The notes under the pieces are model-generated. The model saw nothing but the letters and a program-made list of their open reading frames with translations, was not told the DNA's origin and did not search any database. Positions 37,278 to 40,831 of a stretch of 64,000 nt of DNA are shown piece by piece; position 1 is the stretch's first letter, and every line of letters begins with the position of its first letter. Made by a program: the position numbers and the translations under genes. Location of the stretch: IMG/VR virus record IMGVR_UViG_3300025158_000005; one strand, 5' to 3'. Origin of the DNA: a virus.

Positions 37278-37508
37278 ACAAAGGAATTTTATATTACGGA
37301 TCTCTTGACTAAATTCTCTCTCTTACCGTATTGATCATGCTCGTAATTGGGCTGATGGTTTCTCTGCCTGTGATGCGGCTTTGGAACTTCTGCTTGGTGC
37401 AGGCTGTTATAGGTCTTGTGACAATTGGTTGGCTGCAAGCATGGGGCATTACCGCTCTCTGTGGCATTCTGTTCAAGACCGACGTGACTGTAAAAACATC
37501 ATAAAAGT

Positions 37509-37566
37509 TTGACGAAAAATAAGTTTTACTATATAATAGATGTATAAGTTATAAACTGCTCTTTAA
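37509..37566 (+). promoter_or_regulatory. sigma70 promoter followed by boxA
   Basis: TTGACG-17-TATAAT (37509-37537); TGCTCTTTAA (37557-37566). Confidence 0.75.
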
Positions 37567-37575
37567 TGATATATT

Positions 37576-37775
37576 AGGATAGATACAGCAACAAATTTTA
37601 AAAGACCTACTAAGATTGCCCTAACTTGTGTGAAAGGCTGACTACCGGGAAAGACGGTGACAACTTGGAAAGACACGTTAGAGCCAACGTCGAATCAGTT
37701 GGTGATGTTCAAGGAAATTACTTGATGACACTTGAAAAGACAAGTGCTAAGGGGAAAGCCATGATCTCTATCCTG
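37576..37775 (+). ncRNA. CAGCA-stem RNA A5 (long, multi-hairpin)
   Basis: AGGATAGAT-ACAGCAA ... TCTATCCT-G. Confidence 0.75.
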
Positions 37776-37792
37776 TTAAAGTTGTAAAATTT

Positions 37793-37896
37793 AGGATGAC
37801 TACAGCATACACTTAAAATATCGCTAATGCCTAGAAGTTATAAGGGTCCGGCGCCGAGTATATACGGACGTGGGACCTAGGGCTTCTGTTATCCTG
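37793..37896 (+). ncRNA. CAGCA-stem RNA A6
   Basis: AGGATGACT-ACAGCAT ... GTTATCCT-G. Confidence 0.75.
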
Positions 37897-37914
37897 TCAA
37901 AATGAAGTAGTTTT

Positions 37915-37983
37915 AGAATGTTTGCAGCAAACACTATCTGCAAAGCGATTCCGAGGGACTTATAAATCCCCTCAAACATTCTG
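37915..37983 (+). ncRNA. CAGCA-stem RNA A7
   Basis: AGAATGTTT-GCAGCAA ... AAACATTCT-G (compensatory G-C to A-T change). Confidence 0.75.
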
Positions 37984-38003
37984 TTAATTATTGGAGTAAT
38001 ACA

Positions 38004-38492
38004 ATGAACACTTTTGCACAAGCAGTAAACGCTCCCGCAGTTACCTCAACCACCAACGGCATGAAGGCTTTTACCAACACTGGCAAGTCTATTGTCGACC
38101 TGTTTTATTCGATCGGCTCGTCACGTAATGCACAACCTAAGATTGCTGCTGAATTCTCTCGCGCATTCGCCGAGGACAAGACCCTAGCGGCTCGTACCCT
38201 ATTTTGGGCACGTGATATTCGTGGCGGCGCGGGCGAACGTTTGACGTTCCGTAATCTGATGTTACAGTTGGAAAAGACTGACGTGAACGCATGTAAGCGG
38301 CTAATTCCGTTGATCCCCGAATATGGTCGTTGGGATGATCTGTTGATCTTCACCGCGGCTGATACCAAGGAAGTTGCATATAAAATTATATCAAAAACTC
38401 TCAAAAATGGGATAAAATCCCGTCACATATTGGAAATAATTGAATCGTTGTCTGAAGATGATTGTAAAGAATTGTTGGAGCATTTTGAATAA
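38004..38492 (+). CDS. DUF2828 (TROVE/Ro60-like) protein, N-terminal half
   Basis: TTNG, VDLF, LFWARDIRGGAGER, IPEYGRWDDL. Confidence 0.85.
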   Translation: MNTFAQAVNAPAVTSTTNGMKAFTNTGKSIVDLFYSIGSSRNAQPKIAAEFSRAFAEDKTLAARTLFWARDIRGGAGERLTFRNLMLQLEKTDVNACKRLIPLIPEYGRWDDLLIFTAADTKEVAYKIISKTLKNGIKSRHILEIIESLSEDDCKELLEHFE

Positions 38493-39232
38493 TGTCTAAC
38501 GATGTTTGCATTATCAATTTCTTTTTTGCATATCATACAGCAGCACAATAATGGTTTAACTCTACATTTACTCATCTCACCAGTAAAATGTGGGCAATTA
38601 TTAAAATGATGTTGTTTCATTGCACCGTAATTGGTTCCAATTTTGCCGCAATGTGGACAAGTAAATTCTCCAACTAACGGTTTAGGTTTTGAATATGTAT
38701 TATTCTCAATCAGTTTCATAATATTCAATTTCGCGGCATCTGATCTATTTTTGATATGTTCTTGATCTACGGCTGGATTAAATTTACAATTATCACCATG
38801 AAATCTAATATAATTTCCAGGATCAGTTTCTCGATTACAATGTGGGCACAATTTCTTTTGAGTGTGTTTTCTAGCTTGACTTATATTAAATCGTCTCTCG
38901 TCAGAACATGGTTTATGTTTAAACGGCAACATTATTTTAATCTCAAATGGAGTTAAAGATTGTCTTTTTGTAAAAAATGTCATAGCGTGTTCCATTTTGT
39001 ATTTGTCTGATCCACTGGTCATTTTAGTCAGCAACCAATGACAAACAAAATGTTCTTTAATGCTAAGATAAACAAGTTGATTATTTTTAATAATAGATTT
39101 AGGATAAATGTGATGACCTTCTACTTCTCCTAGCATTAATTTAGCATCTTTTCTTGTTTTCGCCCGGGCAATAGCTTTATCTATTATTTGAAAATACCAC
39201 TTAGTGTATTTGTTGTCTATAAAATGAATCAT
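38423..39232 (-). mobile_element. HNH homing endonuclease inserted antisense within the DUF2828 gene
   Basis: NKYTKWY, EGHHIYPKS, EHFVCHWLL; repeated CPHC...H..NC modules; AT-rich. Confidence 0.88.
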
Positions 39233-39241
39233 TATTTGTCA

Positions 39242-39270
39242 TTGACTTAAATTATTAATTGATATATTAT
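39242..39270 (+). promoter_or_regulatory. sigma70-like promoter for the C-terminal half
   Basis: TTGACT-17-TATTAT. Confidence 0.55.
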
Positions 39271-39299
39271 ATATAAATGGATACCTTGAAAGGGTTAAA

Positions 39300-40331
39300 A
39301 TGTCTTACAAAACACAATTAGAATCAATCTGTCGTCAAAATTTGTCTAGCGCGCAGTTGTGCGCTAAGTGGCAAGATCGTAAAGGGCTGGCAGCAGTCGA
39401 ATTGCGTAAGTTCATGAAGATGACGCCAAAGCAGTATCGCAAGACTTTGGTTTCAATGACTAACGTCGTTGAACAGTCAATGTGTGCCCAAGAATGGGAT
39501 AAGATCGAATTTGACAAGTTGCCTTCTGTTGCGTCAAAGATTTACATGAAGGCATTCACCAAGAATGCGACCGCGCAATATATGAAGTACAAGGAAGCCT
39601 TGACGAAGGGCGAAGCGAAGATCAATGCATCGGCGATCTTCCCGTACCAAGTTATTCAAGGTATGCGCCGTGGTGACGCAACCGTTGGTATGGCGCAATG
39701 GGGCGCACTGCCTAACTATTTGGGCGATGATAAGATTCTGACTATGGTAGACGTGTCGGGGTCAATGAACTGCCCTGCTGGCAGCAACGTGAGTTGTATG
39801 GATATTGCAGTGTCTCTTGGTCTGTATATTGCAGATAAGCAACAAGGCGCATTCAACGGCATGTTCTTGACGTTCTCGGAGAAGCCTCAATTGGTGCAGT
39901 TGACCGGTAACATTCAACAAAAGATGTCGCAAATGCAACGCTCCGACTGGGGTATGAACACCAACATCACCGCGGCATTCGATGAAGTATTGGAGGTGGC
40001 AACTCGTAACAAGGTTGAAGTATCTGAAATGCCCAAGTTCATCTTGATCATGTCAGATATGCAGTTTGATAGATGCTCCAACATGTCTGGGCTGGAAATG
40101 ATTCGTACAAAGTATGAAGCGGCAGGGTACGAAGTTCCGAAGATTGTTTTCTGGAACTTGAATGCAATACACGCAAACGCGCCGACGACGGTCCGTACAG
40201 ATGGTGTTGCATTGATTTCAGGATTCTCGCCTGCAATCATGAAGTCCGTGTTGAAAGCAGAAAACTTTGATCCATTGTCGATTGTTATGCAAACGATTAA
40301 CGGTCCTCGTTATCAGATGATTGAACTGTAA
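39300..40331 (+). CDS. DUF2828 protein, C-terminal half with vWA domain
   Basis: CAKW, YRKTL, MIDAS motif DVSGSM, TFS, WGMNTN, SDMQFD, VFWNL, SGFSP. Confidence 0.9.
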   Translation: MSYKTQLESICRQNLSSAQLCAKWQDRKGLAAVELRKFMKMTPKQYRKTLVSMTNVVEQSMCAQEWDKIEFDKLPSVASKIYMKAFTKNATAQYMKYKEALTKGEAKINASAIFPYQVIQGMRRGDATVGMAQWGALPNYLGDDKILTMVDVSGSMNCPAGSNVSCMDIAVSLGLYIADKQQGAFNGMFLTFSEKPQLVQLTGNIQQKMSQMQRSDWGMNTNITAAFDEVLEVATRNKVEVSEMPKFILIMSDMQFDRCSNMSGLEMIRTKYEAAGYEVPKIVFWNLNAIHANAPTTVRTDGVALISGFSPAIMKSVLKAENFDPLSIVMQTINGPRYQMIEL

Positions 40332-40522
40332 TTTATTGACAATAAATGCCACGTATGCGACAATGTATACGTGTCGTTTTTACATCATGAAGAATGAAAT
40401 GAATTGTCAAGAAAAACCAAAGAACACACTCTGTCCGAATCAGGGGCACACTAATTGATCCTCCTGTTTCAGCAACGAGACAAAAGGATTTCTATGACAA
40501 TCAACCCAGCGGAGAAATCTAA

Positions 40523-40831
40523 ATGCAAGTAGTAATTAACAAACTGTCAACCTATGACGAAATTATCGGTCAAGTATGCGGTGGTTTTCTGCCAGCAACT
40601 ACTAATATGGAGGGTATATGGTTGTACCAGCCTTGCGCCTTGTGGATGATGCAAACTCAGCAAGGTACTGGTGCATCATTCGAGACCCCGTTGCTCCTAG
40701 CTGACGATGATCACCCAGCTTTCTTCCCGTACCACGCAATCAATATGTACACCGAGAGCGTAACCGAGTACGAAAAGCGTTATCTTGAATCGGTCTCTGG
40801 AATTTCTCTAGCAACATCACTGAACGGGTAA
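40523..40831 (+). CDS. Sm-like T4-family hypothetical protein
   Basis: KLSTYDEIIG...Y...SGI pattern. Confidence 0.55.
   Translation: MQVVINKLSTYDEIIGQVCGGFLPATTNMEGIWLYQPCALWMMQTQQGTGASFETPLLLADDDHPAFFPYHAINMYTESVTEYEKRYLESVSGISLATSLNG

What the first reader, a model, noticed from the sequence alone, without database searches (positions are those of the whole stretch)
38004..40331. DUF2828 gene split in two by an antisense HNH endonuclease, with new tails on both halves
Seen: the N-half follows family motifs to ...KIISKTLKNG and then adds IKSRHILEIIESLSEDDCKELLEHFE-stop, overlapping the HNH 3' end. The C-half starts MSYKTQLESICRQNLSSAQ before resuming at LCAKW, with its own promoter-like site. 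Both halves are otherwise free of lesions, although many neighbouring accessory genes are decayed. No intein or group I intron signature is visible. Established: Aeromonas phage Aeh1 nrdA is split by the HNH gene mobE and still functions as two polypeptides. Inference: this is a splicing-free insertion tolerated because the halves reassemble, perhaps through the amphipathic tails supplied by the element acting as a docking pair.
Basis: partly seen in the sequence, partly recalled or inferred. Interest (0 to 1): 0.75.

Follow-up and report, generated by a model that had tools for sequence, protein, structure and literature searches.

The report
Endonuclease-split phage Ro60 gene with adaptor tails
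A phage's Ro60-like RNA-binding protein gene is cut into two genes by a selfish endonuclease cassette that also supplies short conserved peptides on both broken ends; the same cassette recurs in dozens of uncultured phages, giving wide comparative support for a splicing-free repair known from one laboratory case.

Summary
A Ro60-like gene (DUF2828 plus a vWA-type DUF7788 domain) is broken between two helices. A 945-bp AT-rich insert (38412-39356) carries an antisense Mob-like HNH endonuclease. The N-half gains a 26-residue tail and the C-half a 19-residue head.

- **No splicing signal:** no intron or intein signature was found.
- **Not a one-off:** the tail occurs in at least 39 protein clusters (50% identity), all 154-212 aa long. 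None of 75 full-length homologues has it.
- **Tail independent of the nuclease:** in 11 other split loci the same tail and head flank four kinds of nuclease, sense or antisense. Often the nuclease ORF barely overlaps the tail.
- **Protein-level constraint:** tail and head diverge in a codon-periodic pattern.
- **Mobility:** split alleles are scattered over the host-gene tree (AU test p = 1e-5). One has a divergent tract around the insert.

So the cassette (tail, nuclease, head) moves between alleles and its peptides are under selection. They most likely help the two polypeptides assemble, as shown experimentally for phage Aeh1 NrdA (Crona 2011). Direct tail-head binding is not shown.

This scan has noted similar docking tails in other genes on other DNA. 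I class it as a new variant of a known kind.

The parts
37509..37537 (+). Promoter-like site of the transcription unit that holds the leader and the N-half
   Evidence: 11 of 12 matches to the sigma-70 consensus. RNA-library contigs cover 37586-38050.
38004..38411 (+). N-half core of the Ro60-like protein (residues 1-136; helical TROVE-like part)
   Evidence: PHROG 850 positions 1-137, E 1e-30. Pfam DUF2828. Alignment with intact homologues. AF2 model mean pLDDT 86.7.
38412..38492 (+). Tail: 26 added residues plus the stop codon. Predicted as a continuation of the last core helix, a turn, then a second acidic helix starting at an S-E-[ED]-[ED]-C cap.
   Evidence: Absent from all intact homologues. 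Conserved in 34 aligned split N-halves, with L143 invariant and E151 and L158 at 90% or more. Helices 119-148 and 151-161, pLDDT about 90. Net charge -5.
38409..38421 (-). Terminator-like hairpin directly after the endonuclease stop codon, exactly at the left junction of the insert
   Evidence: Pattern scan only.
38423..39232 (-). Antisense free-standing Mob-like HNH homing endonuclease: N-terminal HNH motif (EGHHIxP...N...H) and three CxxC...H...C zinc fingers. Its last 23 codons and stop codon (70 nt) overlap the tail.
   Evidence: PHROG 655 'homing endonuclease', E 1e-22. tblastn to MobE-like genes of T4-like phages, 28-30% identity, E 1e-14. Alignment A4 with invariant C192, C195, H209 and C213.
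38412..39356 (.). The whole insert (945 bp, a multiple of 3; GC about 30-33%): tail, endonuclease gene, divergent control region, head
   Evidence: Composition profile. Boundaries from protein alignment, uncertain by about 3 codons on either side.
39242..39299 (+). Promoter-like site (39242-39270) and AAGGG ribosome-binding-like site in front of the C-half, inside the insert
   Evidence: 10 of 12 consensus matches. Sequence read directly.
39300..39356 (+). Head: 19 added residues, a basic amphipathic helix (pattern M-[ST]-x-K-x-x-L-x-x-x-[LIC]-x-x-x-L)
   Evidence: Conserved in 10 split loci. No similarity to the intact-family profile. Helix 3-13 with low pLDDT (50-56) when folded alone. Codon-periodic divergence.
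39357..40331 (+). C-half core: rest of the TROVE-like helices plus the vWA/DUF7788 domain with a D-x-S-x-S MIDAS motif
   Evidence: PHROG 850 positions 138-475, E 3e-107. DUF7788, E 9e-50. Foldseek matches to Ro60/TROVE structures 9kop, 1yvr, 2nvo and 9l5y. Invariant residues kept.

Best explanation
A mobile homing-endonuclease cassette has entered a phage Ro60-like (TROVE-like + vWA) gene. The entry point is the turn just before its most conserved motif.

The cassette is more than the nuclease gene. On its left edge it carries a short coding segment: a 26-residue helix-turn-helix tail plus a stop codon. On its right edge it carries a promoter or ribosome-binding site, a start codon and a 19-residue basic helix.

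The gene is therefore expressed as two polypeptides. These reassemble without RNA or protein splicing through the native helix-packing interface of the broken alpha-solenoid. The tail and head are adaptor peptides kept by selection. Most probably they stabilise or complete that assembly, either by packing together as a small helical bundle at the break or by restoring a higher-order contact.

The cassette spreads between alleles by homing, dragging flanking exon sequence with it. Its nuclease module is replaceable.

**Shown here:**
- the anatomy of the split;
- the restriction of the tail to split forms;
- conservation of the tail independent of the nuclease;
- protein-type constraint on tail and head;
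- polyphyly of split alleles.

**Inferred:**
- that both polypeptides are made and associate;
- that the tails act in assembly (about 0.5 for direct tail-head docking);
- that the window's HNH enzyme is active.
For: 1. **Clean break.** Intact homologues are the rule.
2. **Tail limited to split forms.** With a profile of 34 N-halves, 39 of the best 150 representative clusters match through the tail, and all are 154-212 aa. All 75 proteins of 430-541 aa stop at profile positions 131-139. An independent word-based search gave about 30 short N-halves with the same tail, some on contigs of up to 379 kb.
3. **Same tail and head, different nucleases.**
   - Antisense HNH: window, L053, L117, L159, L180.
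   - Antisense SegE-like GIY-YIG: L124, L187, L175.
   - Another GIY-YIG-like type: antisense in L127, sense in L118.
   - A truncated HNH remnant: L152.
   - In five of these loci the nuclease ORF overlaps the tail by only 8-24 nt.
4. **Codon-periodic divergence.** For the tail outside the search pattern, in non-overlapping loci, divergence at codon positions 1/2/3 is 0.53/0.37/0.63. For the head it is 0.53/0.41/0.63. Tail pairwise identity is 0.44, against 0.50 for the N-core.
5. **Novel sequence.** Tail and head show no similarity to the intact-family HMM or to Pfam.
6. **Polyphyly.** Split alleles are scattered on the tree of core sequences: 8 changes are needed, at least 5 of them forced by well-supported branches. 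Monophyly is rejected (AU p = 1.15e-5, delta lnL 360).
7. **Divergent tract around the insert.** Split L127 is about 90% identical to intact L005 far from the insert but 50-70% identical within about 40 aa upstream and 120 aa downstream. The two intact sisters are 82-89% identical in the downstream part of that tract and 76% in the 40 aa upstream.
8. **Charge complementarity.** Tails average -2.6 net charge and heads +1.9, echoing the oppositely charged Aeh1 tails (PMC3045599).
9. **Fold.** The tail is modelled confidently as a helical hairpin extending the last core helix. The head is a helix of low confidence on its own.
10. **Precedent.** Aeh1 NrdA-a/NrdA-b tails derived from the mobE insertion are essential for activity (PMC3045599).
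Against: - No direct evidence exists that the two polypeptides are made or associate.
- In the Aeh1 precedent the tails were not needed for the two halves to bind each other, so 'docking pair' may be the wrong picture of their role.
- The exact insert boundaries are uncertain by about 3 codons, because the window has no close intact allele (best 54% identity).
- Loci L115-L202 were found with a pattern built from the tail motif, which biases their tails towards that motif. The unbiased sets and the non-pattern codons were used to offset this.
- The tail's S-E-E-E-C helix cap is a common motif in unrelated proteins.
- Polyphyly could also arise from repeated replacement of split alleles by intact ones.
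Confidence: 0.72

Rival explanations
1. The tails are selected, but not as a tail-to-head docking pair. They may cap or solubilise the exposed helix ends in cis. They may restore an oligomer contact. Or they may serve the element, for example through translational coupling or control of nuclease expression.
For: - In Aeh1 the tails were dispensable for the NrdA-a/NrdA-b heterodimer but needed for the dimer of heterodimers (PMC3045599).
- A phage Ro60 crystallised as a dimer (9l5y).
- The tail hairpin is modelled with high confidence on the N-half alone.
Against: - Tail and head leave the protein at the same surface point, so contact is the simplest expectation.
- Their net charges are complementary.
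- The head alone is modelled with low confidence, as expected for a segment that needs a partner.
- The codon-periodic constraint argues for a protein role and against a DNA or RNA regulatory role.
Confidence: 0.2
2. The split is old and vertically inherited. The scattered distribution reflects repeated loss of the insert (replacement by intact alleles) and nuclease turnover in place, not spread of a tail-bearing cassette.
For: - The root and direction of change cannot be read from the tree.
- A truncated nuclease remnant (L152) and a nuclease-free split (L203) show that nucleases decay in place.
Against: - Monophyly of split forms is rejected.
- Split L127 sits inside a clade of close intact sisters and has a locally divergent tract centred on the insert. 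That is the expected mark of co-conversion during acquisition.
- Intact forms greatly outnumber split forms.
- Active-looking homing nucleases are present.
Confidence: 0.1
3. The tail and head are accidental. The tail is read-through into the insert up to the first stop codon and the head follows a fortuitous start codon. The halves reassemble through the native interface alone.
For: - A 26-codon open run in AT-rich DNA is not rare by chance.
- The tail lies antisense to the endonuclease C-terminus in the window. The two frames share third codon positions, so conservation could leak from one strand to the other.
Against: - The same tail is kept in loci where the nuclease ORF overlaps it by only 8-24 nt, whatever the nuclease type or orientation.
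- Its conservation equals that of the core over 34 sequences.
- It occurs in 39 clusters.
Confidence: 0.05
4. A contiguous product is restored by RNA splicing (a group I or other intron with an antisense ORF), by ribosomal bypass or by protein splicing.
For: - Different nucleases between conserved flanks is the pattern seen for introns and inteins.
- The base before the first core codon of the C-half is G, as at a group I 3' splice site.
Against: - No Rfam family matched, including group I and II introns, at E <= 1.
- The non-ORF flanks (about 80 + 120 nt) are too short for a ribozyme core.
- The flanks diverge like coding sequence.
- The tail (26 aa) and head (19 aa) are far below intein size and have no Pfam intein hit.
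- There is no Cys, Ser or Thr nucleophile at tail position 1, and the +1 residue is Leu/Thr/Met.
- No joint across the insert was seen in three RNA libraries, though cover was too thin to count.
Confidence: 0.04

Closest known systems
Aeromonas phage Aeh1 nrdA-a / mobE / nrdA-b (Friedrich et al. 2007; Crona et al. 2011, PMC3045599)
   Same: - A free-standing Mob-type HNH endonuclease splits a conserved phage gene beside a conserved motif.
- There is no intron or intein.
- AT-rich unique tails on both broken ends come from the insertion.
- The tails carry opposite net charge.
- The downstream half has its own start inside the insert.
   Different: - The host gene is a Ro60-like RNA-binding protein, not an enzyme of DNA metabolism.
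- The nuclease is antisense and overprints the tail.
- The Aeh1 tails had no database relatives. This tail and head form a conserved family (at least 39 clusters) that recurs with HNH and GIY-YIG nucleases in either orientation and on unrelated alleles.
- The charge polarity is reversed (acidic C-tail, basic N-head).
- No biochemistry has been done here.
'Fractured genes' (Dassa et al. 2009, PMC2677866)
   Same: [quoted passage not shown]
- The element supplies the stop codon of the upstream piece and the start codon of the downstream piece.
- Different nuclease families sit at equivalent sites.
- One locus lacks a nuclease.
   Different: - Those pieces carry split-intein halves that ligate the protein.
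- Here the added peptides are 26 and 19 residues with no intein blocks or nucleophiles.
- In that study all three genes lay on one strand. Here the nuclease is mostly antisense.
T4 gene 39 / mobA / gene 60 cassette (PMC2988022; bioRxiv 10.1101/2022.08.31.505936)
   Same: A mobile HNH cassette splits a gene and carries extra sequence that limits the damage. gp39 and gp60 have tail-like extensions, as noted by Crona et al.
   Different: That cassette's known device is a 50-nt translational bypass. Nothing of that kind is seen here.
Ro60 / Rsr / phage Ro60 (TROVE + vWA; PDB 1yvr, 2nvo, 9l5y, 9kop)
   Same: The fold of the C-half model matches these structures (Foldseek probability 1.0, TM 0.44-0.55). 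It has a helical repeat part followed by a vWA domain with a MIDAS motif. A non-coding leader lies just upstream.
   Different: - Sequence identity is only 13-16%.
- By sequence it belongs to Pfam DUF2828/DUF7788, not TROVE.
- It is encoded as two polypeptides.
- An RNA partner has not been shown.

Membership tests
Ro60-like protein (DUF2828 + DUF7788/vWA; PHROG 850) | Sequence match of both halves to the family profile, collinear and complete | tested here: met
   PHROG 850 positions 1-137 (N-half) and 138-475 (C-half). Pfam DUF2828 on both halves and DUF7788 at E 9e-50.
Ro60-like protein (DUF2828 + DUF7788/vWA; PHROG 850) | TROVE-like helical repeats followed by a vWA fold with a MIDAS D-x-S-x-S motif | tested here: met
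   Foldseek hits to 9kop, 1yvr, 2nvo and 9l5y. D151, S153 and S155 are invariant in alignment A3.
Ro60-like protein (DUF2828 + DUF7788/vWA; PHROG 850) | Binds a Y-RNA-like or misfolded RNA partner | not tested
   Only the presence of a transcribed-looking leader at 37586-38003 was noted. No Rfam match.
Endonuclease-fragmented gene assembled through element-derived tails (Aeh1 NrdA type) | Contiguous homologues exist and the break loses no core residues | tested here: met
Endonuclease-fragmented gene assembled through element-derived tails (Aeh1 NrdA type) | A free-standing homing endonuclease gene lies between the pieces, inside an insert of foreign composition | tested here: met
   PHROG 655. 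MobE-like tblastn hits. GC dip.
Endonuclease-fragmented gene assembled through element-derived tails (Aeh1 NrdA type) | Unique tails on both broken ends that are absent from intact homologues | tested here: met
Endonuclease-fragmented gene assembled through element-derived tails (Aeh1 NrdA type) | No RNA or protein splicing; two mature polypeptides that keep their tails | tested here: inconclusive
   No intron or intein signature in silico. RNA-library contigs do not cover the junctions. No proteomics available.
Endonuclease-fragmented gene assembled through element-derived tails (Aeh1 NrdA type) | Tails required for assembly or activity | not testable with these tools
   Only evolutionary constraint was shown.
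Fractured gene with split intein (Dassa 2009) | N- and C-intein halves with splicing blocks and nucleophiles (Cys/Ser at position 1, His-Asn then Cys/Ser/Thr at +1) | tested here: not met
   Tail 26 aa and head 19 aa. First tail residue is variable (I, A, V, S, K, Q, L) and the +1 residue is L, T or M. No Pfam hit.
Group I/II intron carrying a homing endonuclease ORF | Ribozyme core recognisable in the insert | tested here: not met
   No Rfam match at E <= 1 over 37500-40800 on either strand. The flanks evolve as coding sequence.
Mob-like HNH homing endonuclease (PHROG 655) | HNH catalytic motif and homology to Mob-type enzymes of T4-like phages | tested here: met
   The EGHHIxP...N...H motif is conserved with four relatives. 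PHROG 655 at E 1e-22. tblastn at E 1e-14 to annotated MobE-like genes.
Mob-like HNH homing endonuclease (PHROG 655) | Cleaves the insert-free allele near the insertion site | not testable with these tools
   Indirect evidence only: the site is the best-conserved stretch of the family, the DNA-binding module is shared across nuclease classes at this site, and a co-conversion-like tract is present.

The most novel reading that the evidence does not exclude
The tail and head are a portable, self-sufficient heterodimerising adaptor. It belongs to the mobile cassette, not to any one nuclease. It lets the cassette enter a protein-coding gene without an intron or intein and remain harmless for long evolutionary times. 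That would be a third, widespread route to 'phenotypically silent' homing, and a natural split-protein reassembly tag that could be moved to other proteins.
Probability: 0.4. Interest if true: 0.8.

Novelty: new variant of a known kind. Interest (0 to 1): 0.6.

Why it matters
Crona et al. (2011) showed in a single phage that tails created by an endonuclease insertion rescue a fragmented enzyme. They proposed this as a general mechanism but could find no relatives of those tails.

This case supplies what was missing: a whole family of homologous tails and heads.
- It spans at least 39 clusters and 12 sequenced loci.
- It is bound to one insertion site in a different kind of gene.
- It is kept under protein-level constraint.
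- It is carried with interchangeable HNH and GIY-YIG nucleases that share a zinc-finger DNA-binding module.
- It is spread over unrelated alleles.

The hypothesis therefore becomes testable by comparison and by simple biochemistry. The data also document nuclease-module swapping at a fixed homing site. They show that a phage Ro60-like RNA-binding protein is valuable enough to be kept working in two pieces.

Tried and rejected
**Searches and predictions that gave nothing usable**
- Complex prediction on the tail (N-half 129-162) against the head (C-half 1-32): ipSAE 0.17, mark 0.32. No verdict, and not evidence either way.
- Metatranscriptome contigs (three runs) lie on the N-half, the insert and the C-half. 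None bridges a junction and no joint was seen. Cover is too thin, and DNA carry-over cannot be excluded, so this neither proves expression nor excludes splicing.
- Protein search with the head region alone: self only.
- Genome-collection scan for the closest split relative, P0002: nothing.
- Viral scan for the window-type tail: nothing.
- Megablast against GenBank phages: no match.
The contexts of the about 60 database N-halves could therefore not be read.

**Ideas tested and dropped**
- The head as a diverged duplicate of the helix before the break. MAFFT and local HMM extension suggested it. The heads alone score no better than shuffled sequences and at no consistent place. Rejected.
- Tail conservation as a by-product of the antisense HNH frame. 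Rejected.
- The tail motif as a marker of other split genes. The other 72 motif-bearing loci are unrelated proteins in which the S/T-E-E-E-C helix cap sits internally. No other split gene was found, and there is no second copy in the window.
- Intein-remnant origin of the tails, as earlier scan notes found elsewhere. No Pfam match.

**Not tested**
- The claim that neighbouring genes are decayed.
Full report
**What is in the window**

- 38004-38492 (+, 162 aa)
- 38423-39232 (-, 269 aa)
- 39300-40331 (+, 343 aa)

The two plus-strand ORFs are the two parts of one protein family. On PHROG 850 the first covers profile positions 1-137 and the second covers 138-475. Pfam finds DUF2828 on both, and DUF7788/vWA on the second. 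An AlphaFold2 model of the second ORF matches Ro60/TROVE structures, including a phage Ro60 (9kop, 1yvr, 2nvo, 9l5y; Foldseek probability 1.0, TM 0.44-0.55). The gene therefore encodes a Ro60-like RNA-binding protein.

The minus-strand ORF matches PHROG 655 'homing endonuclease' and genes annotated as MobE-like HNH endonucleases in T4-like phages. It keeps the HNH motif and carries CxxC...H...C zinc fingers.

**Where the break lies**

Alignment with three cultured-phage homologues and 46 viral-contig homologues, all uninterrupted, places the break at the NG turn. This turn sits between two helices, just before LxAKW-PRKG, the best-conserved stretch of the family.
- Nothing of the core is missing.
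- The N-half gains 26 residues (38412-38489).
- The C-half gains 19 residues (39300-39356).

The insert is 945 bp. Its GC is about 30-33%, against 45-50% in the gene. It contains a promoter-like site and a ribosome-binding-like site for the C-half. A terminator-like hairpin for the endonuclease lies exactly at the left junction.

No Rfam family matches. Neither added peptide matches any Pfam family.

**The split is not a one-off**

The nearest relative of the endonuclease (L053/L054, 58% identity) lies in the same arrangement in another phage contig.

A search of 5.8 billion proteins with the N-half, limited to short proteins, returned 69 hits. About 30 of these, roughly 160 aa long and some on contigs of up to 379 kb, carry a homologous tail.

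An exhaustive profile search of 1.84 billion representatives gave a sharper result. Among the best 150 hits:
- 39 clusters, all 154-212 aa, match through the tail;
- all 75 proteins of 430-541 aa stop at profile positions 131-139.

The tail therefore exists only on split N-halves. Among the best 40 of 650 GenBank phage records that match, none from a cultured phage has it.

**The tail does not depend on the nuclease**

In the window the tail is encoded antisense to the last 23 codons and the stop codon of the HNH gene. The two frames share third codon positions, so conservation could have come from either strand.

DNA scans with the tail motif settled this. They fetched further split loci from viral and metagenome contigs. 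The same tail and head flank several kinds of nuclease:

| Nuclease between tail and head | Loci |
|---|---|
| Antisense HNH | window, L053, L117, L159, L180, L146 |
| Antisense SegE-like GIY-YIG | L124, L187, L175 |
| Another GIY-YIG-like enzyme, antisense | L127 |
| The same enzyme type, sense | L118 |
| N-terminally truncated HNH remnant | L152 |

In L124, L127, L118, L187 and L152 the nuclease ORF overlaps the tail by only 8-24 nt.

The HNH and SegE-like enzymes share a module of about 110 residues with two zinc fingers, presumably for DNA binding. The third type shares the last finger. Different catalytic domains have thus been exchanged on a common targeting module at one site.

**Constraint on the added peptides**

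| Region | Mean pairwise identity over eight complete loci |
|---|---|
| N-core | 0.50 |
| Tail | 0.44 |
| Head | 0.34 |
| C-core | 0.54 |

In 34 aligned N-halves the tail has one invariant residue and two residues conserved at 90% or more.

DNA divergence is codon-periodic in the reading frame of the halves:
- Tail: 0.53/0.37/0.63 at codon positions 1/2/3. This uses only codons outside the search pattern and only loci without nuclease overlap.
- Head: 0.53/0.41/0.63.

This is the signature of protein-level selection, not of neutral DNA or an RNA structure. Neither peptide resembles any part of the intact family. My passing idea that the head is a duplicated helix is therefore rejected.

**Shape and charge**

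The N-half model (mean pLDDT 86.7) runs the last core helix straight through the break (helix 119-148), turns, and adds a second helix (151-161). Confidence there is about 90. The head is a helix of low confidence when the C-half is folded alone.

Tails are acidic (mean net charge -2.6, mostly in the second helix). Heads are basic (+1.9). Both leave the protein at the same point. A small three-helix bundle is a natural guess, but it is only a guess: the single complex prediction allowed gave no verdict.

**Mobility**

I built a tree from core sequences with tails and heads removed, using 8 split and 49 intact rows.
- The split state needs 8 changes, at least 5 of them forced by well-supported branches.
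- L127 is sister to intact L005 and L007. L053 is sister to intact L009. Both pairings have 100% support.
- Holding the split forms together costs 360 log-likelihood units (AU p = 1.15e-5).

L127 is 87-92% identical to L005 in the N-terminal 95 residues and 72-90% in the distal C-terminal part. It is only 68% identical in the last 40 residues before the insert, and 69, 50 and 70% in the three 40-residue segments after it. In those three downstream segments the two intact sisters are 82-89% identical to each other, and in the 40 residues before the insert 76%.

In L053 the whole N-half is less like its sister than the C-half is.

These are the marks expected of acquisition by homing with co-conversion of flanking exon sequence. 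They also fit nuclease genes sitting at recombination boundaries (compare PMC10448857, seen in the search listing only). Repeated loss cannot be excluded as a contributor.

**Comparison with what is known**

- **Gene in pieces.** The review PMC2988022 lists Aeh1 nrdA/mobE, T4 39/mobA/60 and gene 43/seg as endonuclease-split genes. It calls their assembly an open question.
- **Function of the tails.** They showed that the AT-rich, oppositely charged tails created by the mobE insertion are present on the mature proteins and are essential for activity. Without the tails activity drops about 2000-fold. The tails are needed for the dimer of heterodimers, not for the heterodimer itself. The authors found no relatives of those tails and proposed the device as a general mechanism.
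- **Signals supplied by the element.** Dassa et al. 2009 (PMC2677866) described 'fractured genes', in which the added pieces are split inteins, and argued that the invading element supplies the stop and start signals.

The present case is of the Aeh1 kind, not the intein kind. It differs in the host gene, in the antisense overprinted nuclease, and above all in having a conserved, widespread adaptor family that is independent of the nuclease.

This scan has already noted comparable docking tails in NrdD, UvsW and DnaE on other DNA. The phenomenon is recurrent, and this report should not be read as its first sighting.

**Expression data**

The stretch is held by 21 aquifer or groundwater DNA runs and, in part, by three aquifer metatranscriptome runs. 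RNA-library contigs lie on the leader (the deepest cover), the N-half, the insert and the C-half. None bridges a junction and no joint was seen. This settles nothing.

**Verdict**

The best-supported account is a mobile cassette made of tail, nuclease and head. It splits a Ro60-like gene and keeps it working as two polypeptides without splicing. The role of the tails in assembly is inferred from strong evolutionary constraint and from the Aeh1 precedent.

Confidence is 0.72 for the whole account and about 0.5 for direct tail-head docking.

This limited the census of contexts.

Noticed in passing
window 37586-38003: The non-coding leader between the promoter-like site (37509-37537) and the N-half has the deepest RNA-library contig of the region (depth 16.5). 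An Illumina adapter abuts position 37586, which suggests a fragment end there. Other first-stage notes read this leader as an array of small RNAs for the Ro60-like protein. No Rfam match.
   Followed up: partly
window 40353-40573: One short DNA contig of a groundwater run joins 40352 to 40574. It skips 221 nt just downstream of the C-half, around a terminator-like hairpin. This may be a population variant.
   Followed up: no
L203 3001-4552 (LR756508.1, 484-kb uncultured phage): The same family is split at about the same place with no nuclease between the halves. The N-half stop and the C-half start overlap by 17 nt. The tail is shorter and different but keeps an E-D-C-x-K-L element. This is either a nuclease-free descendant or an independent split.
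   Followed up: partly
L152 1749-2273 (and L182): The antisense HNH gene lacks its N-terminal catalytic part, while the tail of the N-half is intact. The nuclease appears to be decaying while the adaptor persists.
   Followed up: partly
L004 (IMGVR_UViG_3300004108_000074): A 4.5-kb contig 100% identical to the window ends 16 codons into the HNH gene. The assembly break inside the insert might reflect population heterogeneity.
   Followed up: no
window 38426-38590 (HNH residues about 214-269): The window's HNH enzyme has a third zinc finger that its closest relatives lack. The last Cys of that finger is encoded within the overlap with the tail.
   Followed up: partly
proteins P0034, P0043, P0036, P0044: Some short family members end at other places: shortly after the LxAKW motif, or with an unrelated tail. 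There may be other breakpoints or frameshifts in this gene family.
   Followed up: no
L127 and L118, first residues after the KW motif of the C-half: Two split alleles from distant parts of the tree carry the same GIY-YIG-like nuclease type. They also share a 4-residue insertion right after the break (PREKSxK). The window, L053 and L175 share KWQxRKG instead of the usual KW[MT]PRKG. These may be co-converted donor sequence or changes that protect the target site.
   Followed up: partly
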